Source: a virus
Reading direction: 5' to 3' (one strand)
Virus record (IMG/VR): IMGVR_UViG_3300045988_174665
Length of the DNA: 64,000 nucleotides
Positions 29,534-41,486 of this stretch are shown here, one piece after another. Below the pieces are notes generated by a model. The model searched no databases. It was not told the DNA's origin and worked only from the letters and a program-made list of their open reading frames with translations. How positions within the stretch are numbered: the first letter of the stretch is position 1; each line of letters opens with the position of its first letter. The translations under genes were made by a program, and so were the position numbers.

Positions 29534-29547
29534 TTTTTAAACTCCTT

Positions 29548-30231
29548 TTACTTTTCGCAAGTCAAGTTGTACTCTTGTACAAATTCTTCAAGCGTTGGAA
29601 AAGTTTTGAACAATTCCATAATTTTATTAACGCTTTTAAAACTGTTAATGTTTTGTATGCTTTTCTTTAAAGTTTTTGCATTTGTTTTTTTTGTTCTTAA
29701 TAAATTGTTTTCTTTTAAAAACATTAGAAATAAACCCGTAGGAATAACTACACTTGCCCTCATTACTGGAAGGTTCGGACTATATATGGGACAATAAATT
29801 ATGAAGTTAGTCTTTATCATTTTAAAGTCTTGTAAATCTATACTGTAATAACCCAAATCGGCGGAATTTTGTTTACAGTCTAAATTAATTTTAGTTTTTT
29901 TACCTTCCATATTTTTATAATATTTAATAATATCATCTTGGTTTTTTGGTGAAACTCTGACTTTATTTTTTAAATAACGACTAACCGCCAACTCAAACTC
30001 TTCACCCCTTTTTCCGTTCTGATTACCGCCCACGCTCACGCAGTCAACAGAGCCAAAATCAAAAAAAATGTTGCCCGTAAGCTTGCACATTTTAAGAGCA
30101 AGTAAAGCCCTTGACCTTTGTGTGCTTATGGTTTTAGTATCGTTTATAACCTCTTGCAAATCTTCAAGAGTATATAAACCGTTTAAATTATAATCGTGCT
30201 TATTATTTGTTGTGATTTCAAAATTCGTCAT
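29548..30231 (-). CDS. hypothetical protein
   Basis: 227-aa ORF with its own consensus promoter. No confident motif. Confidence 0.4.
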   Translation of the reverse strand: MTNFEITTNNKHDYNLNGLYTLEDLQEVINDTKTISTQRSRALLALKMCKLTGNIFFDFGSVDCVSVGGNQNGKRGEEFELAVSRYLKNKVRVSPKNQDDIIKYYKNMEGKKTKINLDCKQNSADLGYYSIDLQDFKMIKTNFIIYCPIYSPNLPVMRASVVIPTGLFLMFLKENNLLRTKKTNAKTLKKSIQNINSFKSVNKIMELFKTFPTLEEFVQEYNLTCEK

Positions 30232-30287
30232 TGTTAGTTACCTCTTTTTTAAATTGTCAAAGGATTTCTTGTTCCCTTGCAAGTCCT

Positions 30288-30316
30288 ATTATATAGCCGT
30301 TTCAAGTAATTGTCAA
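30288..30316 (-). promoter_or_regulatory. consensus promoter for the 29548..30231 gene
   Basis: Minus strand: TTGACA (30316-30311), 17 bp, TATAAT (30293-30288). Confidence 0.55.
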
Positions 30317-30352
30317 TACTTATTTAGAATATTTTTTCAAAAACTTGCAACC

Positions 30353-30446
30353 TTGTACAATATATACAATACAAAAAAATTGTACTATTTAAAAACTGTA
30401 CAATTTATCTAAAAAAATCAATCTTCTAACAATCTTTTTGTACAAT
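30353..30446. promoter_or_regulatory. cluster of TTGTACAAT palindrome-core boxes (candidate operators)
   Basis: TGTACA at 30354, 30397 and 30439, plus the variant TGTACT at 30381. All lie in the divergent intergenic region. Confidence 0.4.
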
Positions 30447-30865
30447 ATCACTAATCGTACTTTAGACGCAAAGTGCATATTGCACAAAAGCCTATTTTAT
30501 AGTATAATAGAGTGGTAAAAGGTTAGATAAAATTAAAATAAACATATTTATAATTTTATAATCTATTCTAATAATGCAATGAATAATTATATAAAATATT
30601 AGAATATATAGAAAGAAAATAATAGATAATAAATTATATAAATATATCAATAAAATATAAATATATACCATCTTTTTATCAGTAGTTCAGGTGGCAAGGT
30701 GTGTATAAAAATAATGGCGAGGGAGGTAAAAATTACCTCTTTTTGTTTTTGTTTTCTTATTTTTATTTTTTAAAAAGTTCAAAAAAGCTGCGTTTCGGTT
30801 TTGAATGAGCTGCGTCGCCGCTGCAAAAAATTTTTTAAATTTTTAAAATTTTTTTTAAAAAACTA

Positions 30866-30894
30866 TTGACTTTTTAAAAAAGTTATGTTATAAT
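30866..30894 (+). promoter_or_regulatory. consensus promoter of the first plus-strand early unit
   Basis: TTGACT (30866-71), 17 bp, TATAAT (30889-94), then the conserved leader ...aaataaagaaagga. Confidence 0.6.
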
Positions 30895-30926
30895 ATAGTT
30901 ACAAAATAAAGAAAGGAATTTTAAAA

Positions 30927-31136
30927 ATGAAAGCTACAAAAAAAATTACAATGACAAAAAAAGAAAAGAACGCTATTATTAACGGCTTAAATCTACTTAT
31001 TGAATACGGCTATGCCTATGAAGAGATTTTCGGGTGTAATTTGACTGATGATTATGCGGTATGTTTACCAGATGAAATGTTAGAGGCTTTTAAAGCCTCT
31101 TTAGATAGTTCTTATATTAATATTATTAAAGACTAA
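30927..31136 (+). CDS. small acidic early protein
   Basis: 69-aa ORF with an AAAGGA RBS. Confidence 0.5.
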   Translation: MKATKKITMTKKEKNAIINGLNLLIEYGYAYEEIFGCNLTDDYAVCLPDEMLEAFKASLDSSYINIIKD

Positions 31137-31177
31137 AATAAAATATTCATAAGATAAAGAAAAGAGGTGAAAAACAA

Positions 31178-31387
31178 ATGGCTACAATTGTTATTTCAGT
31201 TTTTGCAACTTGGTTTATAATTAGTATTTTAATTGCAATAGGTGATACTTTTTTAAAACAAGATGTATTGTGGGACGATTGGTTTATTATAATTGTATGT
31301 TTCCCATATATTATCATATCCATACCGTTTGAATTGATTGTGAAAACAATAAAAAAATTAAAAAAGAAAAGAGGTAAAAAACAATGA
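31178..31387 (+). CDS. small two-TM membrane protein (paralog family 1)
   Basis: Two hydrophobic segments and a basic tail. Paralog of 31810..32058 (shared W.DW..I..FPY motif). Confidence 0.55.
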   Translation: MATIVISVFATWFIISILIAIGDTFLKQDVLWDDWFIIIVCFPYIIISIPFELIVKTIKKLKKKRGKKQ

Positions 31388-31605
31388 AAATAGCTACCGT
31401 TACGGCTCTTCACGGGCGAGACTCGGACGAATATTCAAAAATTGAAAATGCTATTAATACTCTAACAGATTTTCAGGAGTTTTTAAAAAATAATAGCGTT
31501 GATATGAGCAAAATTGATGAAAATACACTTTGTGTTTTCCGTAGGCAATTACAAAGATTATTCTCTCCAAAAGGTTTGGTTATTGATTGGGTAGATAATG
31601 ATTGA
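31384..31605 (+). CDS. small early protein
   Basis: 73-aa ORF whose ATG overlaps the upstream stop. A terminator follows. Confidence 0.5.
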   Translation: MKIATVTALHGRDSDEYSKIENAINTLTDFQEFLKNNSVDMSKIDENTLCVFRRQLQRLFSPKGLVIDWVDND

Positions 31606-31657
31606 TATAATAAGAAAATAAACGGTTTATATAACCGTTTATTTTTTAACTAAAATT

Positions 31658-31728
31658 GCGTCTAAACTTTGGATTGTTCTTTAGACGACAACCGTCTAAA
31701 ACTTAAAAACTAAAATCATTTTAGACGC
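31658..31728. repeat. boundary cassette 1 (four TTTAGACG half-sites)
   Basis: GCGTCTAAA 31658-66; TTAGACGACAACCGTCTAA 31681-99; TTTAGACGC 31720-28. Terminator hairpin 31621-47 upstream. TTGACA 31749-54 / TATAAT 31772-77 downstream. Confidence 0.85.
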
Positions 31729-31809
31729 AAAATTAATTATAAATTCTATTGACAAATTCAAATTTATAGTGTATAATATATTCATAAGATAAGGAAAGAG
31801 GTGAAAGCA

Positions 31810-32058
31810 ATGACAATCGCAGTAATGATAATTTTAACAAGTTTGATAACTTGGCTTCTTCTTGACATAATCCTTGCTATTTATGACTATAATAAAAATC
31901 AATTTTATATGTGGGAAGATTGGTACACTTTTATAGTATTTTTCCCTTATTTGATTTTTATTTGCCCATTTGGTATGGCAATTTGTACAATAAAGAAAAT
32001 TCTTCGTAACTACAGAAAAGAAAGAAAATATAATTCAAAACATAGAAAGGATAGATAA
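31810..32058 (+). CDS. small two-TM membrane protein (paralog family 1)
   Basis: ORF 31801..32058. The ATG at 31810 follows a GAAAGAGG RBS. Paralog of 31178..31387. Confidence 0.55.
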   Translation: MTIAVMIILTSLITWLLLDIILAIYDYNKNQFYMWEDWYTFIVFFPYLIFICPFGMAICTIKKILRNYRKERKYNSKHRKDR

Positions 32059-32060
32059 TA

Positions 32061-32200
32061 ATGACCGCTGGAGCATTTGTACTTGTAATATATTTTGGGT
32101 TCTTATTTCTTTTTACCCTCGCAAATCGTTAATTTGTGCAATAAAGAAAACCATTCATAAGTATAAGAAAAATAATTCAAAACATAGGAAGGATTGATAA
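32061..32200 (+). pseudogene. degenerate third copy of the membrane-protein family
   Basis: A 23-codon hydrophobic ORF (32061-32132) is followed by about 70 nt (32132-32205) that is roughly 80 percent identical by eye to the 3' end of 31810..32058, including the aattcaaaacatag[a/g]aagga...taataATG junction. Confidence 0.45.
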
Positions 32201-32202
32201 TA

Positions 32203-32424
32203 ATGAAAGCAACTTATATTAGAGAATTAGTAATCACCACAGAAGAAATCGAAACAATTACAAGAGGTCTTGAAAAACTTGAAGAATTTATAGATAGTGC
32301 TAACGAGTTGGAACTTGACCTTTTTGACATTTACGAAATGGATACTATTTCAAGCTTACGCAACAGGGCGGAAGATAACGACTTATTTCTTGATGATAAT
32401 ATTACAATTAAAGAAACGGAGTAA
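32203..32424 (+). CDS. small, highly acidic early protein
   Basis: ORF 32194..32424. ATG at 32203 follows AGGAAGGA. D/E-rich along its whole length. Confidence 0.5.
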   Translation: MKATYIRELVITTEEIETITRGLEKLEEFIDSANELELDLFDIYEMDTISSLRNRAEDNDLFLDDNITIKETE

Positions 32425-32450
32425 TCCGTTTCTTTTTTTTACCTTGTTTT

Positions 32451-32522
32451 GCGTCTAAACTTTTAATTTACTTCTTAGACGGCAACCGTCTAAAGTTATT
32501 TAATCAAAATCAATTTAGACGC
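32451..32522. repeat. boundary cassette 2
   Basis: GCGTCTAAA 32451-59; TTAGACGGCAACCGTCTAA 32475-93; TTTAGACGC 32514-22. Terminator 32413-40. Promoter TTGACA 32564-69 / TATAAT 32587-92. Confidence 0.85.
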
Positions 32523-32624
32523 AAAATCACTAAAAATTTTTTAAAATTTTTTTTAAAAAACTATTGACAAATTCAATTTTATAATGTATAATTAGTATAT
32601 CAAATAAAGAAAGAGGTTTTCACT

Positions 32625-33077
32625 ATGACAACTATCGCAACAATTTTAACTACCTTAATTATATGTGCCGTGACAGGACTTTTACCTTTAATAATAGTCA
32701 AAACTTATTTGGCTATTGAAAGTCATTTCATCAAGAAAGATATTTTAAATAATAAGTTCCTTTATCTGGCTTATTTAAATAAAGCCGAGGAAAGGGAAAA
32801 ATACGGTAGAAGAGCTTGGTACATTGGGAAAAGAAAAAAAGCTTTAAAAAATAAGGTTGATAACTATTACAATGAGATTCATTATTTACCAAAATATATG
32901 GTATCTTGTAAAGAAACAGAAATCGAACAGACTAAAATTTATATTAGTGAATGGGAAACTATCCGTCAACGCAACTGGGAAAAATTAGATAAAATTGATA
33001 CAGAATTAAATAAATGGAAAAAATTCCATTCATTAAAAACTTATGACGAGGAAAAAATCAGGCAGATACTTGCCTGA
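32625..33077 (+). CDS. membrane-anchored coiled-coil protein
   Basis: N-terminal TM segment (TIATILTTLIICAVTGLLPLIIV) followed by a charged helical region. Confidence 0.5.
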   Translation: MTTIATILTTLIICAVTGLLPLIIVKTYLAIESHFIKKDILNNKFLYLAYLNKAEEREKYGRRAWYIGKRKKALKNKVDNYYNEIHYLPKYMVSCKETEIEQTKIYISEWETIRQRNWEKLDKIDTELNKWKKFHSLKTYDEEKIRQILA

Positions 33078-33095
33078 TTTTTTTTATTGTAAATT

Positions 33096-33165
33096 GCGTC
33101 TAAACTTTAAGAAATTAAGACTTAGACGGCAACCGTCTAAAATAAAGAATTGAAAGTTTAGACGC
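33096..33165. repeat. boundary cassette 3
   Basis: GCGTCTAAA 33096-104; central inverted repeat 33122-40; TTTAGACGC 33157-65. Terminator 33057-87. Followed by an ORF-less promoter-leader (33208-36) and then an active promoter TTGACA 33315-20 / TATAAT 33338-43. Confidence 0.85.
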
Positions 33166-33420
33166 AAAATTACTCAAAAAATTTTTAAAAAATTTTTTAA
33201 AAAACTATTGACTTTTAAAAGTTTTTGCTATATAATATATACATAAGATAAAGAAAGGAAAGACAAAAACTTAAAAAACTTTTAAAAAAATTTTTAAAAA
33301 ATTTTAAAAAACTATTGACAAATAAAAAATTCTATGATATAATAAGTACAGAAAGTTAAGAGATTAACTTTTAAATAAAAATAGGGTTGCGACCTAACGC
33401 TAAAAAAGAAAGGATATATT

Positions 33421-33810
33421 ATGACAAACAGAGAATTTTTGAACAGCGTAATTAACAACAACATTGACACTGCCGTTATTGATTTTGCCGAAAATCAGCT
33501 TGCAAAGCTTGATGAACGCAATAAAAAGCGTTCAAGCACAATGAACGCAAGACAGAAAGAGAACGAAAGCATCAAGGCTGAAATTATTGATTTTATCAAG
33601 GAAAACGGTCAGAGTGTTGTCGCAAGTGAAATCGGCGAACAGTTCGGCTTTTCTACTCAGAAAGCAAGTGCATTGCTCAGACAGCTTGCTGAAAGTGGTA
33701 CGCTTGCCGTTGACACCGTAAAAATTCCAAAGAAAGGAAAGGTAAAGGCTTATAGCCTTGCGGGCAATGAAATGACTGCGGACACCGAAAACGATACCGA
33801 AAATGAATAA
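33421..33810 (+). CDS. winged-helix (wHTH) DNA-binding protein, paralog A
   Basis: 129 aa. The segment ...VASEIGEQFGFSTQKASALLRQLAESGTL... is HTH-like. Paralog of 40957..41316 (shared REF...N, KRN.KR, STQKASALLRQL and KIPKKGK). Confidence 0.6.
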   Translation: MTNREFLNSVINNNIDTAVIDFAENQLAKLDERNKKRSSTMNARQKENESIKAEIIDFIKENGQSVVASEIGEQFGFSTQKASALLRQLAESGTLAVDTVKIPKKGKVKAYSLAGNEMTADTENDTENE

Positions 33811-33856
33811 GTAAAAATAAGGTGGGCAACAGTCCACCTTATTTTTACCCAAATTT

Positions 33857-33933
33857 GCGTCTAAACTATTAGTTAAAAAATTTAGACGACAACCGTCTAA
33901 AGGTTATTTTATCGAAAAATAAACTTTAGACGC
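33857..33933. repeat. boundary cassette 4
   Basis: GCGTCTAAA 33857-65; TTAGACGACAACCGTCTAA 33882-900; TTTAGACGC 33925-33. Terminator 33817-46. Promoter TTGATT 33954-59 / TATAAT 33977-82. Confidence 0.85.
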
Positions 33934-34017
33934 AAAATTAACTTAAAAAACTATTGATTTTTTAAAAAATTTATTGTATAATTATTATAGAAAATAAAAG
34001 AAAGGAGTTTATCAAAA

Positions 34018-34455
34018 ATGAATATTATGGTAAAATCACAAATTGAACTTGACAAAATTCCACTCGATACAAAAGCACAAATTTCTATTAAATTTGGAAC
34101 TATTAAAAATCCCGCTGTTGTAAAAAATAAATATTTTTACAATATTTTAGTATATGGTAAAAGCGTGGTAAAAGTATATGGCAATAGCAATATTGTAGCA
34201 TTTGATAATAGTACTATTCTAACATATGATAATAGTATTGTTGAGGCATTTGGCAATAGTACTGTTATAGCTTGTAACAATAGTTTTGTTAGAACATATG
34301 ATAATAGCACTATTACAGCATATGATAATAGTATTGTTGAAGCATTTGATAATAGTACAGTTGAAGCATTTGACAATAGTACTATTATAGCTTGTCATAA
34401 TAGTTTTGTTAAAACATATGATAATAGTACTATTAAAGTATATAATAATGCTTAA
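34018..34455 (+). CDS. octapeptide-repeat protein (V.AFDNST periodicity)
   Basis: About 12 consecutive 8-aa repeats (IVAFDNST ILTYDNSI VEAFGNST VIACNNSF VRTYDNST ...). The antisense ORF 34137..34376 is an artefact of the repeat. Confidence 0.55.
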   Translation: MNIMVKSQIELDKIPLDTKAQISIKFGTIKNPAVVKNKYFYNILVYGKSVVKVYGNSNIVAFDNSTILTYDNSIVEAFGNSTVIACNNSFVRTYDNSTITAYDNSIVEAFDNSTVEAFDNSTIIACHNSFVKTYDNSTIKVYNNA

Positions 34456-34548
34456 AAAAATATTAAAAAAGTAATATAATTTTAATAAATAAATTAATTT
34501 TAAAAATAAACGATTTATCTAAAATCGTTTATTTTTTTAACTTAAATT

Positions 34549-34621
34549 GCGTCTAAACTATTAGTTAAGAATTTAGACGCTAACCGTCTAAAGCCATTTA
34601 ATTGAGATAGAGTTTAGACGC
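34549..34621. repeat. boundary cassette 5
   Basis: GCGTCTAAA 34549-57; TTAGACGCTAACCGTCTAA 34573-91; TTTAGACGC 34613-21. Terminator 34508-38. Followed by an ORF-less promoter-leader (TTGACA 34665-70 / TATAAT 34688-93) and then a second promoter at 34747-74. Confidence 0.85.
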
Positions 34622-34795
34622 AAAATTTGCCCTAAAAATTTTTTAAAAATTTTTTAAAAAGCTATTGACAAAATCAATTTTATAATGTATAATATATACA
34701 TAAGATAAAGAAAGGAAAAACAAGAAACTTAAAAAATTAAAAACTATTGATAAATAAAAAATCTATAATATAATAAATACAAAGGTGGAATTACA

Positions 34796-35089
34796 ATGAA
34801 AAAATTTGAGATTGAAACTATGCAAATAAACGAAACTATATATACAGAAAGTGTATTTGTGGGTACAGGTAGAGAAATATTAAATCTATACAAAAATTTA
34901 ATGAAGCACACCGAAAGAGTGTGTAATAAATGGGAAAACAATAACGGACTCCCATATGTTGATATAAGAGGAATCCAAGGTATAGAATTGTATCTCACAC
35001 AAGAATATTCCATAAACTGGACACCTCGTGTTCGGATTATGGGAAAGAATGAAACGGCAAAATTCCTATTAGAGAGATGTGAAATGTAG
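34796..35089 (+). CDS. hypothetical early protein
   Basis: 97-aa ORF with an AAAGGTGG RBS. Confidence 0.5.
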   Translation: MKKFEIETMQINETIYTESVFVGTGREILNLYKNLMKHTERVCNKWENNNGLPYVDIRGIQGIELYLTQEYSINWTPRVRIMGKNETAKFLLERCEM

Positions 35090-35177
35090 GAATCAGCCTA
35101 TTCTTTCAAAAAATAAAATAACAAAAATATAATCAAAGGGTGGGTAATAACTCACCTTTTATTTTTTATTATAATTT

Positions 35178-35253
35178 GCGTCTAAACTATTAATTAGACA
35201 AAGTTTAGACGATAGCCGTCTAAAGATTATTTTATTAAAACAACTTTAGACGA
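35178..35253. repeat. boundary cassette 6
   Basis: GCGTCTAAA 35178-86; TTAGACGATAGCCGTCTAA 35205-23; variant right arm TTTAGACGA 35245-53. Promoter TTGACT 35264-69 / TATAAT 35287-92. Confidence 0.8.
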
Positions 35254-35314
35254 AAAAAAAGTCTTGACTTTTAAAAGAAAATATATTATAATATAGTTAC
35301 AGAATAAAGAAAGG

Positions 35315-35761
35315 GTGCTTATTGTGACAGATGAAAGTTTAATGTTATTAGTATATTTTGGTGTTACCGCTTTTATACTTTTTGGAGTGCTATTTGAATT
35401 ACTATATAGCAAATTAAAATATATTAAAAAAATTAAAAAACAGCCACATAAATTCACGCAATTGTTGTATTATTATAATACAATACAAAAATACACTAAA
35501 ATGTGTATAGATTCACATAATATACTAATTAAAAAAATAACAGAACTAAATAATATATATAAAGCATTATTAACAGCAAGTAAAATAGAAGATATTGATA
35601 AAGTGACTTTATCAAAAAAAGTAGAAATTCAAAAACTTGTCATAAAAGACAACCTTTTGGAAACCTTGTTAAAAGAACAGGAAAATGCTTTTGAAGAATT
35701 AAAAAAAGAATTAAAAGTTGATAATTGTGATGAAAAACTAATTAAAAGGCTTACTAAATAA
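35315..35761 (+). CDS. membrane-anchored coiled-coil protein
   Basis: GTG start at 35315 or 35324. One TM segment followed by a K/E-rich helix. Confidence 0.45.
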   Translation: MLIVTDESLMLLVYFGVTAFILFGVLFELLYSKLKYIKKIKKQPHKFTQLLYYYNTIQKYTKMCIDSHNILIKKITELNNIYKALLTASKIEDIDKVTLSKKVEIQKLVIKDNLLETLLKEQENAFEELKKELKVDNCDEKLIKRLTK

Positions 35762-35783
35762 GCCTTTTATTTTTTGAAGAAAA

Positions 35784-35853
35784 GCGTCTAAACTATTATA
35801 ACCTTTAGACGGCAACCGTCTAAATCAGCTTTAAAATAAAAAAGTTTAGACGC
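35784..35853. repeat. boundary cassette 7
   Basis: GCGTCTAAA 35784-92; TTAGACGGCAACCGTCTAA 35805-23; TTTAGACGC 35845-53. Promoter TTGACT 35864-69 / TATAAT 35887-92. Confidence 0.85.
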
Positions 35854-35928
35854 AAAAATTATCTTGACTTTTTTAAAAAAATATATTATAATTACTATAG
35901 AAAATAAAAGAAAAGAGGAAATTCAAAA

Positions 35929-36357
35929 ATGATTTATTTCGATATGGACGGAACAATCGCAGACTTTTATGGTGTTAATGGTTGGCTTGATTGCTTAAAC
36001 AATGAGGACACAATGCCTTATAAAAGGGCTAAACCGTTAATAAAAATGAATGTTCTTGCAAGGGTATTAAACAATTTACAGAAAAGAGGTTTTGAAATCG
36101 GTATAATTTCTTGGACTGCTAAAGACAGTTCTGAAAGCTATCATAAAGCTGTCGCAAGAGAAAAAGAACAATGGTTGCATACTCATTTGAAAAGTGTAAA
36201 ATTTAATGAAATTAATATTCTTAAATATGGTGTTCCAAAAAGCACCGTAGCAACCGAAAACGATATTCTTTTTGATGACGACAAAAGAGTTAGAAAAGAA
36301 TTTTGCGGGCGGGCATTTGATGAAACAAAAATATTTGAAATCTTAAAGGCTCTTTAA
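35929..36357 (+). CDS. HAD-superfamily 5'(3')-deoxyribonucleotidase-like phosphatase
   Basis: N-terminal DMDGT (DxDxT) motif, a later SW motif and a C-terminal FDDD, arranged as in NT5C-type phage nucleotidases. Confidence 0.65.
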   Translation: MIYFDMDGTIADFYGVNGWLDCLNNEDTMPYKRAKPLIKMNVLARVLNNLQKRGFEIGIISWTAKDSSESYHKAVAREKEQWLHTHLKSVKFNEINILKYGVPKSTVATENDILFDDDKRVRKEFCGRAFDETKIFEILKAL

Positions 36358-36382
36358 AGAGCCTTTAATTTTGCTATAATTT

Positions 36383-36448
36383 GCGTCTAAACTGCCGCTG
36401 CGACTTAGACGCTAACCGTCTAAAATAAAGAATTAAAAGTTTAGACGC
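36383..36448. repeat. boundary cassette 8
   Basis: GCGTCTAAA 36383-91; TTAGACGCTAACCGTCTAA 36405-23; TTTAGACGC 36440-48. Promoter TTGACT 36491-96 / TATAAT 36514-19. Confidence 0.85.
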
Positions 36449-36549
36449 AAAATTCATTTTTAAAATTTTAAAAAATTTTCAAAAAACTATTGACTTTTTA
36501 AAGTTTTTACTATATAATATATACATAAGATAAAGAAAGGAAAATAACA

Positions 36550-36783
36550 ATGAAAAAGAAAAAGATATTTTGGGAACTTATGGGGTATATAACCTTAACA
36601 GGTTTAATTATCGGACAAATTACTGTAGGCTACTGGTATTTATTTGCACAGCTTATTTATTTATTTTGTAATGCAGTTAATGTGCTTAGGGATTTCTCAG
36701 AGCATATGCCATATTCTTATAGAGTAAAGGATATTTGTTTTACTGCTATTACAATTGGTTTAATTTGTCTTTGGATTTTTTAA
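36550..36783 (+). CDS. small multi-TM membrane protein
   Basis: 77 aa with three hydrophobic segments. Confidence 0.5.
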   Translation: MKKKKIFWELMGYITLTGLIIGQITVGYWYLFAQLIYLFCNAVNVLRDFSEHMPYSYRVKDICFTAITIGLICLWIF

Positions 36784-36797
36784 AGGGGAGAAAATAA

Positions 36798-37217
36798 ATG
36801 TTAAATAATATTTTATATATCGCTATTGCCGCACTTATTACAATAATTATGGTATGGATTATTGAAATTTTTATTTATATTTCTAAAGTAAAAAAGAATA
36901 AAAATATTTTCAAAAGAATTGTAAGGTTGGAAAGAAGAATTTCAATTTACAACAAAAAATTAAAAAAATTGCATACAAGTTATATTGCAGTTAAAGAGTT
37001 TGAAAAAATTACAGCCAATAGCTATTATAATAAAAAGTCCTCTTTCGCTGAATATAGTAGAGATATGGACAAAACATTAGATATTATGGAATTGATACAA
37101 ATTACTATAAAAACTATTACAATAAGAAAACAAGAGGCAGAGAGAGAACGAAAAAGATTACAAGGCATTATAAAGGTTGATAAATTAAGATTTAAAATAA
37201 TTGCAAGGTTCATTTGA
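36798..37217 (+). CDS. membrane-anchored basic coiled-coil protein
   Basis: N-terminal TM segment followed by a K/R-rich helix. GGGGAG RBS. Confidence 0.5.
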   Translation: MLNNILYIAIAALITIIMVWIIEIFIYISKVKKNKNIFKRIVRLERRISIYNKKLKKLHTSYIAVKEFEKITANSYYNKKSSFAEYSRDMDKTLDIMELIQITIKTITIRKQEAERERKRLQGIIKVDKLRFKIIARFI

Positions 37218-37243
37218 GCCTTGCTTTTTATTTTCGTCAAAAA

Positions 37244-37376
37244 GCGTCTAAATCTTTAAGTTTCAGGGTTTAGACGCTAACCGTCTAAATTTTATTTTAA
37301 GATTTTAGACGCAAAAATTTGCTTTCTTTATAAAATTTTATTATAATTATCTTAAAGAAAAAGAAATTTTAGACGC
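37244..37376. repeat. boundary cassette 9 (with extra right arm)
   Basis: GCGTCTAAA 37244-52; TTAGACGCTAACCGTCTAA 37270-88; TTTAGACGC 37304-12. A further TTTAGACGC at 37368-76 follows a leader-like remnant. Promoter TTGACA 37416-21 / TATAAT 37439-44. Confidence 0.8.
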
Positions 37377-37477
37377 AAATTTTTTAGAAATTCTAAAATT
37401 ATTTTTAAAAAACTATTGACAAACTAAAATTTCTAATGTATAATATAATTGAAATTAAAAGAAAGGTGGCTACTTTT

Positions 37478-37837
37478 ATGGCAACACGCAAACAATTGAG
37501 AGAAGAAATCAAAAAGCATTATATGGAAAAATTCATTGACTTTTTGGATAAAAGTGGTGAAGATGTTTTGATTGTAGGTTCAAACAAGCTGGCTTTCCCT
37601 GTTACTGACAGCGAAAACAATGAAGATTTTATCGAGCTTACAATTAAAATTCCGATAGGTGCTAATAAAGGCACTGAACCATATGATGGATATGCAATGG
37701 CGGAAGACTACGAAATCCATCAGCGTGAAATGGCTGAAAAGAAAGAGAAAGCTAAGAAACTCAAAGAAGAAAAAATCAAAAGAGATAAGTTGTACAGAGA
37801 AAACAAAAAAAGACAGAAAGAAGGAAGAGCGGTTTAA
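37478..37837 (+). CDS. hypothetical protein, paralog family 2 (GANKGTEPYDGYAMAEDYE motif)
   Basis: ORF 37436..37837, whose first ATG lies inside the -10 box. Start set to 37478 after AAAGGTGG. Paralog of 38969..39331. Confidence 0.55.
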   Translation: MATRKQLREEIKKHYMEKFIDFLDKSGEDVLIVGSNKLAFPVTDSENNEDFIELTIKIPIGANKGTEPYDGYAMAEDYEIHQREMAEKKEKAKKLKEEKIKRDKLYRENKKRQKEGRAV

Positions 37838-37877
37838 CCGCTCTTTTTTTAAAACCTTTTTAAATTTGCGTCTAAAC

Positions 37878-37949
37878 TATTAATTAGACAAAGTTTAGAC
37901 GGTTGCCGTCTAAAGGTTAAAGATTAGAACTTTAGACGCAAAATTTGCC
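37878..37949. repeat. boundary cassette 10 (central spacer inverted)
   Basis: GCGTCTAAA 37878-86; TTAGACGGTTGCCGTCTAA 37905-23, with core GGTTGCC instead of GGCAACC; TTTAGACGC 37941-49. Promoter TTGACA 37984-89 / TATAAT 38007-12. Confidence 0.85.
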
Positions 37950-38044
37950 TTAAAAAAATTTTTAAAAAACTTTTAAAAAACTATTGACAAAATCAATTTT
38001 ATAGTGTATAATAAGTACATAAATTAAAGAAAGGGTGTTCAAAA

Positions 38045-38722
38045 ATGAACGAGATAAAAATTGATAAACGAAAAAATTATTATATGGTGTTTGATACGGA
38101 AACATCAAATTCACTTGATGACCCGATTATGTATGACTTGGGCGGTGCTATCATTGATAAAAAAGGTCAAGTATATGAAACATTTTCTTTTGTAATATGG
38201 GATACTTTCTGTAATATGCGAGAGCTGATGAAAACTGCTTATTATTACGAAAAAGTACCGCAATACTGGGACGAAATCAAAAGCGGTCAGCGTAAAATCG
38301 TATCACTTTTTACTGCAAAAAAATATTTTTATGACTTATGCAAAAAGTATAATGTAACGGCTATTATGGCACATAACGCAAGGTTTGATTATAAGTCAAC
38401 TAATGGTACTTTACGCTACTTGACAAAATCAAAATACCGCTATTTTTTGCCGTATGGCATACCACTATGGGACACTTTAAGAATGGCAAAAAGTACGGTG
38501 TGCAAACAAAAGTCATATATAAAGTGGTGCAATAAATACGGTTATGTACAAAAAAACGGTCAGGTCAGGGCAACGGCTGAAATTTTATACCGTTATATGG
38601 TAGGTAATAACAATTATACAGAGTGCCACACTGGACTTGAAGATGTGTTAATTGAAAAAGAAATTTTTGTGTGGTGTATGCGACAGCACAAAAAAATGAA
38701 TAAAAATTGTTTTAAGAAATAA
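38045..38722 (+). CDS. DnaQ-like DEDDh 3'-5' exonuclease
   Basis: Motifs FDTET (ExoI), HNARFD (ExoII) and H..LED (ExoIII) in the canonical order. Confidence 0.7.
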   Translation: MNEIKIDKRKNYYMVFDTETSNSLDDPIMYDLGGAIIDKKGQVYETFSFVIWDTFCNMRELMKTAYYYEKVPQYWDEIKSGQRKIVSLFTAKKYFYDLCKKYNVTAIMAHNARFDYKSTNGTLRYLTKSKYRYFLPYGIPLWDTLRMAKSTVCKQKSYIKWCNKYGYVQKNGQVRATAEILYRYMVGNNNYTECHTGLEDVLIEKEIFVWCMRQHKKMNKNCFKK

Positions 38723-38786
38723 GGGCAATCGCCCTTATTTTTTTACTTTAATACTTTAACACTTTAAAGCATTAAAATCTCAAATT

Positions 38787-38862
38787 CCGTCTAAACCGCA
38801 ACGCCTAAGTTGAATTTTAGACGACAACCGTCTAAGTTTTTAACTGCTCAAAGTTTAGACGC
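38787..38862. repeat. boundary cassette 11
   Basis: Variant left arm CCGTCTAAA 38787-95; TTAGACGACAACCGTCTAA 38817-35; TTTAGACGC 38854-62. Promoter TTGACA 38908-13 / TATAAT 38931-36. Confidence 0.8.
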
Positions 38863-38968
38863 AAAACTCCTTTTAAAAAATTTTTTAAAAAAACTTTTAA
38901 AAAACTATTGACAAAATAGGCTTTATAGTATATAATATATACATAAGATAAAGAGAGGAGTTAATCTA

Positions 38969-39331
38969 ATGAAAGTTTCAAGAAAGGTATTGCGTGACAA
39001 AAAGCGTAATGAATATGTCGAATTACTAACCGAGTTATTAAAACCCCGTGAAGATGTTTTGCGAGTCGGCAGTAATGAGATTGCCTTTCCGATTGTTGAT
39101 GACGAGGGCAACGAGGATTTTATTGTAATCACCGTCAAAGTACCGACTGGAGCAAATAAGGGAACAGAACCCTATGACGGCTATGCAATGGCGGAGGACT
39201 ATGAAATGCACCTCAAAGAAAAAGCCGAGAAAAAAGCAAAAGCCGAAAAAGCAAAGGCTGAAAAAATTGCCCGTGATAAGGCATATCGAGAGGCAAAAAA
39301 GAAGCAAAAAGAAAAAAGAGTAGAGCAGTAA
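38969..39331 (+). CDS. hypothetical protein, paralog family 2
   Basis: Shares ...VGSN.(L/I)AFP(V/I).D.E.NEDFI..T.K(I/V)P.GANKGTEPYDGYAMAEDYE.H and a K/E-rich tail with 37478..37837. Confidence 0.55.
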   Translation: MKVSRKVLRDKKRNEYVELLTELLKPREDVLRVGSNEIAFPIVDDEGNEDFIVITVKVPTGANKGTEPYDGYAMAEDYEMHLKEKAEKKAKAEKAKAEKIARDKAYREAKKKQKEKRVEQ

Positions 39332-39386
39332 TGCTCTACTTTTTTAGCCTATTACTTTAGTGCTTTAAAGCGTTGAAGTCTAAAAC

Positions 39387-39469
39387 CCGTCTAAACTGCC
39401 GTAACGATAAAGATTAAAGTTTAGACGACAACCGTCTAAAGTTAACCCATATTGAAAGAGTTTAGACGC
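39387..39469. repeat. boundary cassette 12
   Basis: CCGTCTAAA 39387-95; TTAGACGACAACCGTCTAA 39421-39; TTTAGACGC 39461-69. Promoter TTGACA 39504-09 / TATAAT 39527-32. Confidence 0.8.
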
Positions 39470-39567
39470 AAAATTTATTTTAAAAAAAATTTTCTAAAAA
39501 GACTTGACAAAATTTTCATTCTATGGTATAATTTATAAAGAATTAAAGAAAGGCGGTTTGATAACCA

Positions 39568-39939
39568 ATGCAACAAATTTATACAAGTAAATACGGCTCT
39601 ATTTTTTCACGCACTAAAATTCCGAAAAAAGAGGGCGACTATGTTTATTTTATTCAAATCGGAACAACAAACGAACGGCTTTTCAAAGTTGGCACAACAA
39701 ATAATGTACTGCGGAGAATGAAAGAACATAACAAATACTATAAAAAAGATATTTATATTTTGTGGGTATCGCCCTGTTACTCAAAATATACCACTTTAAG
39801 GGTAGAGGATAACACAAAAAAAATATGGTCAACATTAACGGGATTTACCTATAAAAGAAATGACCGTTTTATAATAAGTCCTGTTATAACCAAAGTACAA
39901 ATAAAAGTCAGAAAAATTTATGAGATTGCACTTGAATAA
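39568..39939 (+). CDS. GIY-YIG / T5orf172-like domain protein
   Basis: YVYFIQIG...KVGTTNNVLRRMKEH resembles the GIY...YIG...R..EH core. Weak call made by eye. Confidence 0.4.
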   Translation: MQQIYTSKYGSIFSRTKIPKKEGDYVYFIQIGTTNERLFKVGTTNNVLRRMKEHNKYYKKDIYILWVSPCYSKYTTLRVEDNTKKIWSTLTGFTYKRNDRFIISPVITKVQIKVRKIYEIALE

Positions 39940-39963
39940 AGTGCAATCTTTTTTTATTAATAG

Positions 39964-40071
39964 TTTAGACGGGTTTTTAAGTTTAGACGCAAAGATGTTT
40001 AGACGGGTGCCGTCTAAACTCGTCAAAATTTAAGGGGTGTCAAAATTCTTCTCTTGTCAATTTTTAGACGC
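39964..40071. repeat. boundary cassette 13 (rearranged, no promoter)
   Basis: TTTAGACGG 39964-72; TTTAGACGC 39982-90; TTAGACGGGTGCCGTCTAA 39999-40017; TTTAGACGC 40063-71. Confidence 0.7.
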
Positions 40072-40956: not shown

Positions 40957-41316
40957 ATGACACAGAGAGAATTTTTCAACGCAATCGCAGAGAACGAAAC
41001 TTTGACTGAGGAAATGAGAGATTTCGCAAAGAATCAGATTGTTCTTCTTGATAAGAGAAATGAAAAGAGAAGAGAGGCAACTTCCCGAAAGGCAAAAGAG
41101 AACGCACCTATTATCGCCGCTATTCTTGAAACCCTTACAACAGAACCTCAGACAGCAGCGGAAATCGCCGAAGTTGTAGAAATCTCTACACAGAAAGCAA
41201 GTGCTCTTCTTCGTCAGCTTGAAGAAAAGGGAGAAATTTTGACAACTGAACTCAAAATACCGAAGAAGGGTAAGAGAAAATCTTACTTTATAGTAGAATC
41301 GAAAGAAGCCGATTAA
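40957..41316 (+). CDS. winged-helix (wHTH) DNA-binding protein, paralog B
   Basis: ORF 40936..41316. The ATG at 40957 follows GGAGAAAGAGG. Contains STQKASALLRQLEEKGEI. Lies between the two iteron fields. Confidence 0.6.
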   Translation: MTQREFFNAIAENETLTEEMRDFAKNQIVLLDKRNEKRREATSRKAKENAPIIAAILETLTTEPQTAAEIAEVVEISTQKASALLRQLEEKGEILTTELKIPKKGKRKSYFIVESKEAD

Positions 41317-41365
41317 GGCTTCTTTTCTTTTACGCTTTAAACGCTCCTTTGCGTTTTAAACGCTC

Positions 41366-41452: not shown

Positions 41453-41486
41453 GATTTTCTGCGATTTTTGAGCCAGACACTCATAC

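What the first reader, a model, noticed from the sequence alone, without database searches (positions are those of the whole stretch)
30461..40071. Thirteen copies of a four-half-site TTTAGACG element bounding nearly every early transcription unit
Between almost all plus-strand early genes the same composite is repeated. It runs: rho-independent terminator, then GCGTCTAAA(C), 12-18 nt, TTAGACG-N5-CGTCTAA (usually TTAGACGG-CAA-CCGTCTAA), 15-24 nt, (G)TTTAGACGC, an A/T-rich UP-like run, TTGACA-17-TATAAT, and a conserved leader (ATAAGATAAAGAAAGGA). The four 8-mers alternate in orientation. On a single strand they can therefore pair as two adjacent hairpins, or nested with outer arms paired and inner arms paired. 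The arms are invariant while the 5-nt core varies (ACAAC, GCAAC, CTAAC, ATAGC). In cassette 10 the core is exactly inverted (GGTTGCC versus GGCAACC). A lone right arm sits at 30461 and a scrambled cassette at 39964-40071 closes the array. Possible roles are: (a) operator for a phage regulator, with the two wHTH paralogs at 33421 and 40957 as candidates; (b) an RNA processing or stability element in read-through transcripts; (c) a recombination module that shuffles gene cassettes, analogous to the PeSL promoter-stem-loop repeats of T4-type phages or, loosely, integron attC sites. Read as 7-bp arms around a 7-bp asymmetric core, the central site has the geometry of a tyrosine-recombinase core site, but no recombinase is in the window.
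Basis: partly seen in the sequence, partly recalled or inferred. Interest (0 to 1): 0.8.

Follow-up and report, generated by a model that had tools for sequence, protein, structure and literature searches.

The report
Boundary palindromes between phage early-gene cassettes
In this uncultivated gut phage a dozen one-gene early units are each separated by a terminator, an invariant palindromic DNA site and a strong promoter. The palindrome is most likely a recognition site for a phage-encoded protein that marks every unit boundary, and the repeated spacers also let strains swap whole genes.

Summary
TTTAGACG occurs 51 times in the window (about 2 expected), all within 30461-40070. The sites form 12 canonical four-half-site composites plus one scrambled terminal cluster, each between an intrinsic terminator and a near-consensus sigma-A promoter.

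Relatives show that the ancestral unit is only the central 19-bp palindrome TTAGACG-N5-CGTCTAA. Its spacing is rigid (N5 1018 times, N4 8 times). Its core shows no orientation bias. It usually starts 6-21 nt after the terminator. The outer arms occur only in this low-GC lineage.

Other lineages carry a different palindrome in the same slot, for example TTAGATG, TTCGTACG or GCCCGGGC. The motif type switches together with the gene family at the head of the array, with no discordant case. In the window that gene is 29548-30231 and has a PD-(D/E)XK-like signature. The recognition helix of the wHTH paralogs does not track the motif.

Sister strains differ by whole cassettes, with junctions spread across the repeated spacer. 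This resembles T4-type PeSL shuffling and is not site-specific.

Best reading: a double-stranded DNA recognition site for a phage-encoded symmetric protein that marks cassette boundaries. Whether that protein binds or cuts is unresolved. RNA-processing and tyrosine-recombinase readings are not supported.

The parts
30461..30468 (+). Lone right-arm half-site (cTTTAGACGC). It lies 12 nt upstream of a weaker promoter (30481-30508) at the start of the plus-strand block.
31659..31727 (.). Composite 1: left arm GCGTCTAAA, central TTAGACG-ACAAC-CGTCTAA (31681-31699), right arm TTTAGACGC
32452..32521 (.). Composite 2 (centre 32475-32493, core GCAAC)
33097..33164 (.). Composite 3 (centre 33122-33140, core GCAAC)
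33858..33932 (.). Composite 4 (centre 33882-33900, core ACAAC)
34550..34620 (.). Composite 5 (centre 34573-34591, core CTAAC)
35179..35252 (.). Composite 6 (centre 35205-35223, core ATAGC; the right arm lacks the trailing C)
35785..35852 (.). Composite 7 (centre 35805-35823, core GCAAC)
36384..36447 (.). Composite 8 (centre 36405-36423, core CTAAC)
37245..37375 (.). Composite 9 (centre 37270-37288, core CTAAC). It has a duplicated right arm (37304-37311 and 37368-37375) flanking an empty promoter-like unit.
37869..37938 (.). Composite 10 (centre 37895-37913, inverted core GTTGC)
38788..38861 (.). Composite 11 (centre 38817-38835, core ACAAC; left arm CCGTCTAAA)
39388..39468 (.). Composite 12 (centre 39421-39439, core ACAAC; left arm CCGTCTAAA)
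39964..40070 (.). Terminal scrambled cluster. It has five half-sites, including one complete palindrome at 39999-40017. It follows the last terminator (39922-39950) and has no promoter after it.
31749..39532 (+). Span holding the 14 sigma-A-type promoters of the cassettes (11-12 of 12 matches). They lie at 31749-31777, 32564-32592, 33208-33236, 33315-33343, 33954-33982 (10/12), 34665-34693, 34747-34774, 35264-35292, 35864-35892, 36490-36518, 37416-37444, 37984-38012, 38908-38936 and 39504-39532. Most are preceded by 11-12-nt A/T-tract repeats.
29548..30231 (-). Array-head gene (227 aa). It is fast-evolving and has an E80...D100...D118-x-K120 signature of PD-(D/E)XK type. Its family (fam13/20) is the only one whose presence tracks the 7-N5-7 palindrome type. 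It is the candidate cognate protein.
30288..30316 (-). Perfect 12/12 sigma-A promoter of the array-head gene, divergent from the array
33421..33810 (+). wHTH paralog A (129 aa). Three N-terminal helices plus a winged helix. Conserved cargo gene of the array.
40957..41316 (+). wHTH paralog B (119 aa from the ATG at 40957), just beyond the array

Best explanation
Proposed function. The TTTAGACG composite is the boundary element of an array of self-contained, mostly one-gene early transcription units (promoter, gene, terminator).

Functional core. Its core is the 19-bp palindrome TTAGACG-N5-CGTCTAA. I propose that this is a double-stranded DNA recognition site for a symmetric (dimeric or tetrameric) protein encoded by the phage itself.

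Position and action. The site sits directly behind each intrinsic terminator and in front of the A/T-rich upstream region of the next sigma-A promoter. The proposed action is that the bound protein marks and insulates every unit. It would block polymerases that read through the terminator. It would also occupy the upstream flank of the next very strong promoter, so early transcription can be shut down or tuned for all units at once.

Candidate protein. The most likely partner is the rapidly evolving PD-(D/E)XK-like protein at the head of the array (29548-30231), not the wHTH paralogs.

Outer arms. In this low-GC lineage two extra half-sites were added (outer arms GCGTCTAAA and TTTAGACGC, at flexible distance). 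These probably allow a higher-order complex.

Side effect. As a by-product, the 130-200-bp repeated spacers act as homology patches through which strains gain, lose and reorder whole cassettes.

What is shown and what is inferred. Shown: the anatomy, the conservation, the symmetry, the lineage-specific replacement, the co-variation with the head gene, and the cassette polymorphism. Inferred: that a protein binds, which protein it is, and that the effect is insulation or repression and not cleavage.
For: 1. Localisation. All 51 half-sites lie in the early block and none in the other 54 kb.

2. Conservation. The same palindrome recurs 5-25 times per contig on more than 100 IMG/VR stretches from 20-140-kb phage contigs with GC of 27-47%. 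It always lies between a terminator and a TTGACA/TATAAT promoter.

3. Geometry of a symmetric DNA-binding site.
- The half-site spacing is N5 in 1018 cases, N4 in 8 and essentially never anything else.
- The flanks are symmetric: T at position -1 in 70% and A at +1 in 72%.
- The central base is A 204 times and T 189 times.
- The N5 core has no orientation bias relative to the promoter.

4. Position. Of 367 palindromes with a detectable terminator, 90% start 6-21 nt after the stem end. Half end 7-12 nt before the -35. The last copy of each array has a terminator but no promoter.

5. Concerted lineage-specific replacement. L151 has TTAGATG-N5-CATCTAA 15 times. L183, L188, L190 and L191 have TTCGTACG-N5-CGTACGAA. 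Many others have GCCCGGGC in the same slot.
- L159 and L135 share 92% identical backbone and collinear cargo genes at 84-92% nt identity.
- Yet every linker slot differs between them: GCCCGGGC in L159 against TTAGACG palindromes in L135.

6. Co-variation with one gene family.
- fam13/20 is in 53 of 69 loci with 7-N5-7 palindromes and 0 of 46 without (p = 9e-19).
- fam15/26 shows the reverse, 0 of 69 against 38 of 46.
- Where the array head is covered, the counts are 36/37 against 0/22 and 0/37 against 21/22.
- There are 70-73 concordant leaves and 0 discordant, despite at least 4-8 switches on gene trees.

7. Expression. The head gene has its own perfect sigma-A promoter, so it should be made immediately.

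8. No host regulon. In 185,579 bacterial genomes, multi-copy arrays occur only on phage-like MAG contigs. Elsewhere there are only single chance hits.
Against: - No binding or activity was tested.
- The head-gene family has no recognisable DNA-binding domain. It gives no solved-structure hit by sequence and only faint PDDEXK_9 hits in 3 of 40 members. Its AlphaFold model is unusable (pLDDT 46).
- Its nuclease-type residues are invariant. This fits an enzyme that cuts better than a passive binder.
- It is only 47% identical between the window and L123, although both use the identical site.
- Head gene and array are physically adjacent. Part of the co-variation is therefore block inheritance: cargo trees need only 4-8 switches against about 25 expected at random.
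- The roughly 10.5-nt periodicity of the palindrome-to-promoter distances could come from 11-12-nt A/T-tract repeat units, not from a face-of-helix constraint.
- The variable outer-arm spacing (10-26 nt, left and right uncorrelated, r = 0.03) is awkward for a rigid protein complex.
Confidence: 0.5

Rival explanations
1. Programmed cleavage or nicking sites. The head-of-array PD-(D/E)XK protein is an active, sequence-specific endonuclease. It cuts or nicks the phage's own DNA at each cassette boundary. The breaks stimulate recombination between cassettes and between co-infecting relatives, or prime recombination-dependent replication. The palindromes would then be recombination hot spots and not transcriptional operators.
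For: - The E...D...ExK residues are invariant in a family with 25% mean identity.
- Both motif types look like restriction-type sites: an interrupted 7-N5-7 palindrome and GCCCGGGC.
- Motif and head gene are perfectly concordant.
- Sister strains differ by whole cassettes, and 20 of 23 junctions lie within about 108 nt of a palindrome centre. Several lie exactly at the palindrome edge (-9, -10, -13, -3).
- There are empty-cassette scars at 33208-33262, 34665-34720 and 37305-37375.
- The one-gene, self-contained units would stay expressible even if separated.
Against: - Self-cleavage at 13 sites needs a protection or repair mechanism that was not seen.
- The nuclease assignment rests on a motif only.
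- The junctions are spread over -101 to +108, as expected from plain homologous recombination.
- The tight placement next to terminators and promoters is not needed for a cleavage site.
Confidence: 0.2
2. Operator for the wHTH paralogs. The proteins at 33421 and 40957 bind the TTAGACG half-sites as dimers and feed back on all early promoters.
For: - The wHTH family is the most widespread array-resident family: 273 ORFs in 142 of 193 loci, with 2-3 paralogs per locus.
- It has a confident winged-helix model (pLDDT 82.6) with MarR/PadR/TFE-like matches.
- Both the half-site and the recognition helix are highly conserved within the TTAGACG class.
Against: - The same helix, S-T-Q-K-A-S-A-L-(L/C)-R-Q, occurs in loci whose slot holds GCCCGGGC, TTAGTC..GACTAA, AATATAT or GTTAAA-type palindromes.
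- The ALVKKV helix variant tracks a clade, not the motif. It is found with both TCGTACG and GCCCGGGC.
- The family is present in 46 of 46 loci that lack the palindrome.
Confidence: 0.1
3. Passive PeSL-like repeat. The palindrome has no partner of its own. It is kept uniform only because the whole spacer is homogenised by frequent recombination and gene conversion among cassettes.
For: - Spacers are 80-90% identical between non-orthologous cassettes.
- Cassette-level polymorphism is seen among strains.
- T4-type PeSLs behave this way (PMC2839356).
Against: - Arms are perfect and spacing is exactly N5 across phages whose conserved proteins are only 40-70% identical and whose GC ranges from 27 to 47%, while the adjacent spacer sequence is free to vary.
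- The motif was replaced in all slots while flanking spacer and cargo stayed homologous.
- Motif type is strictly coupled to one gene family.
Confidence: 0.1
4. Binding site for a host factor, such as a global regulator of the Clostridia host, which the phage exploits to time early transcription.
For: - Early promoters must fire before any phage protein is made.
- Some other lineages carry palindromes that resemble host boxes. The resemblance to a CodY box is from my own knowledge and was not tested; an example is AATTGTCTGACAATT in L173.
Against: - Close relatives with 92% identical backbones carry unrelated motifs.
- No multi-copy occurrence or regulon-like pattern appears in bacterial genomes.
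- The motif co-varies with a phage gene.
Confidence: 0.05
5. Single-strand (RNA or ssDNA) structure. This covers an RNase III-type processing or stability element in read-through transcripts, a cruciform, or an attC-like folded recombination site for a tyrosine recombinase.
For: - Inverted arms give nested (4 of 5) or side-by-side (1 of 5) folds with z-scores of -4.9 to -8.5.
- Outer arms tolerate variable loop lengths.
- In the window lineage the CAAC core is mostly co-oriented with transcription.
Against: - The element lies outside the predicted transcription units.
- Most relatives have only the 7-bp-arm central palindrome.
- GCCCGGGC in the equivalent slot cannot form a useful hairpin.
- There is no orientation bias family-wide.
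- The spacing is rigid at N5, where a loop could vary.
- There is no Rfam hit.
- No recombinase was found among the scanned ORFs.
- The 2883-aa ORF is a tape measure, not an N4-like virion RNA polymerase.
Confidence: 0.05

Closest known systems
PeSL (promoter-early stem-loop) regulatory cassettes of T4-type phages (Arbiol et al. 2010, PMC2839356)
   Same: - Repeated intergenic modules with a strong sigma-70-type early promoter, an A/T-rich upstream region and a stem-loop.
- They flank small, mostly orphan early genes in a plastic region.
- Close relatives differ by insertion, deletion or replacement of whole cassettes, with crossovers spread over the module.
   Different: - Here the terminator is a separate, classical hairpin with a T-run.
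- The conserved palindrome is an extra element with rigid 7-N5-7 geometry.
- It is swapped for unrelated palindromes in sister lineages, together with one gene family.
- The host is a Gram-positive gut anaerobe and the phage is a siphovirus.
- Mini-circles could not be tested.
Stoperators of Cluster A mycobacteriophages (L5, Bxb1; PMC9283540, PMC6550527)
   Same: - Tens of copies of one short site sit in intergenic gaps.
- A phage-encoded protein recognises them and blocks elongating polymerase as well as promoters.
- Sites and protein diverge together between lineages.
   Different: - By those papers' abstracts, stoperators are asymmetric sites read by a monomeric repressor. That they are 13-14 bp, oriented with transcription, spread over the whole genome and belong to temperate phages is from my own knowledge.
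- Here the site is a symmetric 19-bp palindrome confined to the early array.
- No immunity repressor or integrase was seen.
phiC31 conserved inverted repeats (CIRs) bound by the repressor c (from my own knowledge; no paper retrieved)
   Same: A 17-bp inverted repeat recurs at many intergenic positions of the early region, near early promoters and terminators, and is bound by a phage protein.
   Different: - The phage is temperate and infects Streptomyces.
- The promoters are not sigma-70 type.
- The repressor is known.
- There is no one-site-per-cassette regularity.
phi29 protein p4 sites and anti-CRISPR Aca operators (from my own knowledge)
   Same: Inverted repeats just upstream of, or in, very strong early promoters let a small phage protein shut those promoters down after the first minutes.
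   Different: - There are one or a few sites per genome, not one per gene.
- The partners are known small DNA-binding proteins; that Aca proteins are HTH proteins is from my own knowledge.
Integron attC sites and tyrosine-recombinase core sites
   Same: Imperfect palindromes separate one-gene cassettes.
   Different: - Integron cassettes lack promoters and need IntI.
- attC works as a folded single strand with extrahelical bases.
- Here each cassette has its own promoter and terminator.
- No recombinase was found.
- Junctions are not at the core.
Roadblock-assisted termination (Reb1/TTF-I sites behind T-rich release elements of RNA polymerase I; bacterial CodY, CcpA and LacI roadblocks) (from my own knowledge)
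   Same: A protein site a fixed short distance downstream of a T-rich release element is the geometry seen here. The palindrome starts 6-21 nt after the terminator stem.
   Different: This is an analogy of mechanism only. There is no homology and nothing was tested.

Membership tests
PeSL-type regulatory cassette | Strong sigma-70-like early promoter with an A/T-rich upstream region in each repeat | tested here: met
   Fourteen plus-strand promoters match at 11-12 of 12 positions. They are preceded by 11-12-nt A/T repeats.
PeSL-type regulatory cassette | A stem-loop in the same module that acts as terminator or attenuator | tested here: inconclusive
   A classical terminator is present in every spacer. 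The conserved palindrome is a separate element and is not followed by a T-run on the sense strand.
PeSL-type regulatory cassette | Flanks small accessory or orphan genes in a plastic region, and close relatives differ by whole cassettes | tested here: met
   There are 846 cassettes with a median size of 498 bp. 84% hold one ORF, and 266 cargo families are seen.
PeSL-type regulatory cassette | Crossovers map within the repeated module; mini-circles form | tested here: inconclusive
   20 of 23 breakpoints lie within about 108 nt of a palindrome centre. Mini-circles are not testable with these tools.
Stoperator system (Cluster A mycobacteriophages) | Asymmetric site oriented with transcription | tested here: not met
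   The site is a symmetric palindrome with no orientation bias.
Stoperator system (Cluster A mycobacteriophages) | Many intergenic copies that co-evolve with a phage-encoded binding protein | tested here: inconclusive
   Many copies and lineage-specific replacement are shown. Co-variation with the head-gene family is shown. Binding is not shown.
Integron attC / tyrosine-recombinase core site | Adjacent tyrosine recombinase | tested here: not met
   No integrase or recombinase domain appears in the window ORFs scanned with Pfam and PHROGs. Small ORFs and the rest of the genome were not scanned.
Integron attC / tyrosine-recombinase core site | Promoterless cassettes; exchange exactly at the core | tested here: not met
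   Each cassette has its own promoter. Junctions are scattered from -101 to +108 around the centre.
N4-type hairpin promoter for a virion RNA polymerase | Giant virion RNA polymerase and a hairpin that is itself the promoter | tested here: not met
   The 2883-aa ORF is a tape-measure protein. Canonical sigma-A promoters follow the element.
Intrinsic terminator | G+C-rich hairpin followed by a T-run on the transcribed strand | tested here: not met
   The central palindrome is followed by A-rich sequence on the plus strand. Only one copy has a good T-run, and that is on the minus strand.
PD-(D/E)XK nuclease (for the head-gene family fam13/20) | Conserved E...(P)D...(D/E)xK catalytic signature on the restriction-endonuclease-like fold | tested here: inconclusive
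   The signature is present and invariant: G76, D100 and K120 are invariant, and E80 and E118 are at least 90% conserved. The fold is not confirmed: pLDDT is 46, there is no PDB sequence hit, and there are faint PDDEXK_9 hits in only 3 of 40 members.
MarR-like winged-helix regulator (for 33421 and 40957) | Winged-helix fold; dimer binding a palindromic operator | tested here: inconclusive
   The fold is supported. Pfam scores are below the curated cut-offs. There is no co-variation with the palindrome. Binding is not testable here.

The most novel reading that the evidence does not exclude
The palindromes and the array-head gene form a two-part system that has not been described. A rapidly evolving PD-(D/E)XK endonuclease recognises, and nicks or cuts, a cognate palindrome placed at every boundary of a promoter-carrying gene cassette. 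This would drive exchange of accessory early genes between co-infecting phages. It would be an integron-like shuffling device without an integrase, and it might also prime recombination-dependent replication. The two mutually exclusive pairs are fam13/20 with 7-N5-7 palindromes and fam15/26 with GCCCGGGC. They would define exchange or incompatibility groups that have replaced each other repeatedly on the same phage backbone.
Probability: 0.17. Interest if true: 0.9.

Novelty: new variant of a known kind. Interest (0 to 1): 0.65.

Why it matters
These 100-140-kb siphoviruses of gut Clostridia are common in human and animal metagenomes, but none has been cultured. Their early arrays hold hundreds of unknown small genes, which are likely host-takeover and anti-defence functions.

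- A fixed, easily recognised boundary motif gives a way to delimit early genes and cassettes directly from metagenomic sequence.
- The strict pairing of motif type with one swappable gene family is a directly testable protein-DNA pair.
- If the partner is a regulator, it is a master switch for the whole early programme.
- If it is a nuclease, it is a dedicated engine for modular gene exchange. The authors of the PeSL paper speculated about such a helper protein but did not find one (PMC2839356).

Tried and rejected
Searches that found nothing:
- Megablast of the region against 50,697 phage records gave no match.
- Literature searches for the motifs, for Phass-1 and for similar cassettes found no description of the element.
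- Rfam gave nothing at E of 1 or below.
- Profile searches of PDB sequences with the head-gene alignments A3 and A4 gave no hits.
- A profile search of the 5.8-billion protein set with A3 found 66 unannotated relatives only.
- The scan of bacterial genomes for a host regulon or prophage found only phage-like MAG contigs and single chance hits.

Candidates for the DNA partner that were set aside:
- The wHTH paralogs. Recognition-helix variants were tabulated against motif class and showed no co-variation.
- Family 1 (the 37436 and 38969 paralogs). It is highly conserved whatever the motif.
- AbrB/MazE-like family 14. It is a true Pfam hit, but its N-terminus is invariant across motif classes and it is absent from the window.
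- The sigma-like protein 27652-28995. Its presence is unrelated to motif type.

Other readings rejected:
- An N4-like virion RNA polymerase reading of the 2883-aa ORF. It is a tape-measure protein.

Tests that were unusable or weak:
- The structure prediction of the head protein was unusable (pLDDT 46), so no fold search was run on it.
- Helical phasing of palindrome-to-promoter distance is suggestive (R of about 0.3-0.55 near 10-11 nt). I do not rely on it, because 11-12-nt A/T repeat units and shared ancestry of cassettes can produce the same pattern.

Full report
**1. The observation**

- TTTAGACG occurs 51 times in the window, against a mean of 2.0 and a maximum of 6 in shuffles. Every copy lies between 30461 and 40070.
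- The central palindrome TTAGACG-N5-CGTCTAA occurs 13 times against none expected.
- Reading the region and tabulating it gives 12 canonical composites. Each has this order:
  - an intrinsic terminator;
  - a left arm (T)TTG-CGTCTAAAC;
  - 13-26 nt;
  - the central palindrome tTTAGACG-N5-CGTCTAAa;
  - 16-25 nt;
  - a right arm GTTTAGACG-CAAAAT;
  - an A/T-tract run;
  - a promoter.
- A 13th, scrambled cluster of five half-sites (39964-40070) follows the last terminator and has no promoter after it. A lone right arm sits at 30461.
- Fourteen plus-strand promoters in the array match TTGACA-17-TATAAT at 11-12 of 12 positions. Terminator-like hairpins number 28 against 3.9 expected.
- Small corrections:
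  - the arms are not strictly invariant;
  - the 'leader' is exact in only three cassettes;
  - composite 9 carries a duplicated right arm.

**2. Context**

- The window is part of a large siphovirus with about 30% GC.
- It encodes a 2883-aa tape-measure protein, a distal tail protein, a portal, a large terminase and a sigma-factor-like protein.
- It also holds an RNA-repair module and a tRNA cluster.
- The plus-strand early block (30.4-40.1 kb) is flanked by minus-strand genes on both sides.
- Positions 28045-44000 of the window are 100% identical to a 136-kb contig from a metagenome assembly (ERZ27250593). Sister strains occur on 107-109-kb contigs, one of them from a Hadza sample.
- The nearest named phage is phAss-1, with 29% portal identity. 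Its paper predicts a Clostridia host and does not mention repeats or promoters.

**3. The ancestral unit is the central palindrome**

They lie on many 20-140-kb viral contigs, and multi-copy loci have GC of 27-47%.
- In nearly all of them the element is a single 19-bp palindrome between a terminator and a TTGACA/TATAAT promoter.
- The four-half-site form occurs only in the window's close relatives (L012, L055, L070, L092, L116/L123, L288-L293).
- Across all loci the half-site spacing is N5 in 1018 cases and N4 in 8, with essentially nothing else. Outer-arm distances range from 10 to 27 nt.
- Oriented by the downstream promoter, the site is symmetric. T is at -1 in 70% and A at +1 in 72%. The centre base is A 204 times and T 189 times. 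Asymmetric cores occur in both orientations, for example TAATA 23 against TATTA 38.
It is not a property of the element.
- The palindrome is tied more tightly to the terminator than to the promoter. 90% of copies start 6-21 nt after the terminator stem, whereas only half end 7-12 nt before the -35.
- The larger promoter distances rise in steps of about 10-11 nt. The A/T tracts in between are themselves 11-12-nt tandem units, so I do not treat this as proof of helical phasing.

**4. The slot is conserved but its content is replaceable**

- Loci fetched through the wHTH protein show other lineages with a different palindrome in the same position:
  - AATTAGATGTA-N3-TACATCTAATT 15 times in L151;
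  - TTTTCGTACGTA-N-TACGTACGAAAA in L183, L188, L190 and L191;
  - AATATATAATATATT in L174;
  - in many others GCCCGGGC, sometimes with TTAGTC..GACTAA.
- The clearest pair is L159 and L135.
  - Their backbones are 92% identical.
  - Their cargo genes are collinear at 84-92% nt identity.
  - Yet every post-terminator slot holds GCCCGGGC in L159 and a TTAGACG palindrome in L135.
  - The spacer is homologous again a few bases further on.
- Neutral drift or simple homogenisation does not explain a replacement of all slots. A change of a trans-acting partner does.

**5. Which partner?**

I clustered all ORFs of 193 loci and asked which families track the motif.

*The wHTH family*
- Both window paralogs belong to it.
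- It is the most widespread array-resident family.
- Its winged-helix fold is confident: pLDDT 82.6, with Foldseek and profile matches to MarR, PadR and TFE-type domains.
- Its recognition helix is the same whatever the slot contains. The ALVKKV helix variant follows a clade that contains both TCGTACG and GCCCGGGC phages.

*Families that do not track the motif*
- Family 1 (the 37436 and 38969 paralogs) does not co-vary with the motif.
- The AbrB/MazE-like family does not co-vary either.
- Presence of the sigma-like protein is unrelated to motif type.

*The array-head gene*
- The strongest discriminators are the genes at the head of the array.
- fam13 and fam20 are homologous to each other (HHalign probability 98.4%). 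They include window 29548-30231.
- They occur in 53 of 69 loci with 7-N5-7 palindromes and in 0 of 46 without. fam15/26 shows the reverse, 0 of 69 against 38 of 46.
- Where the locus covers the array head, the counts are 36/37 against 0/22 and 0/37 against 21/22.
- On the sigma-like and fam11 trees the head-gene type needs at least 8 and 6 switches, close to random. On cargo-gene trees it needs 4-8, against about 25 at random. Motif and head gene are never discordant: 70-73 concordant leaves and 0 discordant.
- So the early module moves relative to the backbone, which is block inheritance. Even within related arrays, though, the head gene and the linker motif switch together.

*What the family looks like*
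- It is very divergent, with a mean identity of 25%.
- It keeps G76, D100 and K120 invariant, and E80 and E118 in at least 90% of members. This is a PD-(D/E)XK-type signature.
- fam15 keeps E113, D137, Q146 and K148.

*What is lacking*
- Only 3 of 40 members give faint PDDEXK_9 hits.
- There is no PDB sequence match.
- The AlphaFold model is unusable.
- The 66 database relatives carry no informative name or Pfam domain.
- The window protein is 47% identical to that of L123, although both phages use the same site.

*Expression*
- The gene has its own 12/12 promoter, divergent from the array.

**6. Recombination**

- The close relative L123 lacks cassettes 4, 5 and 11 of the window and has cassettes 1 and 2 in the opposite order.
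- Four sister strains carry an identical 225-aa exonuclease-like protein but differ from the window in cassette content. Two further contigs, L288 and L293, are identical to the window over their overlap.
- Of 23 homology breakpoints inside the array, 20 lie within about 108 nt of a palindrome centre. A window of that width would hold roughly 30% of the array by chance.
- The breakpoints are spread from -101 to +108, at the terminator, the arms, the palindrome edge and the promoter.
- The window also holds empty units at 33208-33262 and 34665-34720, and the duplicated right arm at 37305-37375.
- Family-wide, 846 inter-palindrome cassettes have a median size of 498 bp. 84% hold one ORF, and 266 cargo families are seen.
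- This matches the PeSL picture in T4-type phages. It does not show site-specific exchange at the core.

**7. RNA and single-strand readings**

- Folding five cassettes gives nested (4) or side-by-side (1) hairpins with strong z-scores. Any set of inverted repeats would do that.
- The element lies outside the predicted transcription units.
- It is symmetric in use.
- It has rigid spacing.
- It is replaced by an 8-bp GC palindrome in sister lineages.
- It has no Rfam match.

**8. Host factor**

A scan of one genome from each of 185,579 bacterial and archaeal species found arrays only on small MAG contigs binned as Clostridia, Eubacteriales, Acutalibacteraceae and similar. Elsewhere there were only single chance hits. 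There is no sign of a host regulon or of prophages in isolate genomes.

**9. Verdict**

- The element is a real, strongly selected boundary site of a PeSL-like early-cassette array.
- The best-supported mechanism is recognition of the double-stranded palindrome by a symmetric, phage-encoded protein.
- The array-head PD-(D/E)XK-like family is the best candidate for that protein.
- I favour a binding, insulating or repressing role (confidence 0.5). Programmed cleavage that promotes cassette exchange is the main rival (0.2). The invariant nuclease-type residues keep that rival alive.
- The wHTH-operator, passive-repeat, host-factor and RNA or attC readings are less likely.
- The cassette architecture is a new variant of known kinds (PeSL, stoperator-like multi-site control). 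I found no description in the searched literature of the strict, repeatedly switched pairing of linker motif with a head gene.

Noticed in passing
window 40071-40720 (also 30780-30830): The non-coding region after the array carries 7 of the window's 10 GTCAAATT copies, plus AGCTGC(G/A) motifs. Similar GTCAAAT and AGCTGCAAA runs follow the arrays in L010, L151, L183, L164, L126 and L128. This could be an origin, a packaging region or a decoy -35 region.
   Followed up: partly
window 41320-42200: About 900 bp of low-complexity DNA. It includes 20/40/60-nt tandem repeats at 41477-41596 (CCTATAAATCAATACTCATA-like) and long polypyrimidine and TTA-type repeats. The listed 141-aa ORF 41641-42066 is probably not a gene.
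   Followed up: partly
window 30330-30450: A cluster of TGTACA(AT) palindromes lies between the divergent head-gene promoter (30288-30316) and the lone right arm. TGTATACA clusters sit at array heads in L191, L065, L015 and L047. This is possibly a second operator type.
   Followed up: no
window 30481-30745: A promoter-like site (TGCACA-16-TATAAT) is followed by about 210 nt of extremely A/T-rich sequence with no ORF in the sense direction, ending in a terminator (30719-30743). It may be a first early non-coding RNA. It has no Rfam match and is conserved in sister strains.
   Followed up: partly
window 33208-33262, 34665-34720, 37305-37375: These are 'empty' units. Each has a promoter and conserved leader, or a right arm and a weak promoter, directly followed by the next upstream region and promoter. 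They look like scars of cassette deletion.
   Followed up: partly
window 33421-33810 and 40957-41316; loci L001-L192: The wHTH family has 2-3 paralogs per phage and at least 681 database relatives, of which only two carry a name from their source. Its N-terminus M-T-x-R-E-F is almost invariant. Its own target is unknown; a conserved element such as the GTCAAAT repeats is one possibility.
   Followed up: partly
window 37436-37837 and 38969-39331: Two paralogs of a very conserved early family (162 ORFs in 123 loci). They have a beta-rich N-terminal part and a Lys/Glu-rich tail. There is no Pfam, PHROG or PDB match.
   Followed up: partly
window 34018-34455: This cargo gene encodes a 145-aa protein built from about ten 8-residue (24-nt) repeats of the type YDNSTI/FDNSTV. 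It matches only PHROG 15773, of unknown function.
   Followed up: no
window 35929-36357, 38045-38722, 39568-39939: The recognisable cargo genes are an NT5C-like 5'-deoxynucleotidase, a DnaQ-like (FDTET) exonuclease-like protein (PHROG 20187), and a T5orf172/GIY-YIG-like protein. Together they are reminiscent of the pre-early host-takeover genes of T5.
   Followed up: partly
window 47989-62395: This stretch holds an RNA-repair and anti-tRNA-cleavage style module: RNA ligase 54576-55769, AAA_33 kinase 51550-52476, RlaP-like 53623-54495, and phosphoesterases 47989-48552 and 58057-58911. It is followed by 11 tRNA genes (58864-62395).
   Followed up: no
L173, L174, L177 (relatives): Some lineages carry other palindromes upstream of promoters: AATTGTCTGACAATT (CodY-box-like), AATATATAATATATT in 2-3 tandem copies per promoter, and TAGTTAAAAATTTTAACTA. 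L177-type contigs (150-170 kb) also show a repeated TTCATAAATTATTCAT motif in place of sigma-A promoters.
   Followed up: no
L291 8998-9162; L023, L064, L137, L151 and others: AbrB/MazE-type swapped-hairpin proteins (Pfam PF04014) are frequent cargo genes of these arrays. One sister strain of the window phage has one, but the window does not.
   Followed up: partly
window 6517-15168: The tape-measure gene encodes 2883 aa, which implies a very long tail. The 3149-3209-aa tape-measure proteins of the phAss-1 group are comparable (PMC10607447).
   Followed up: no
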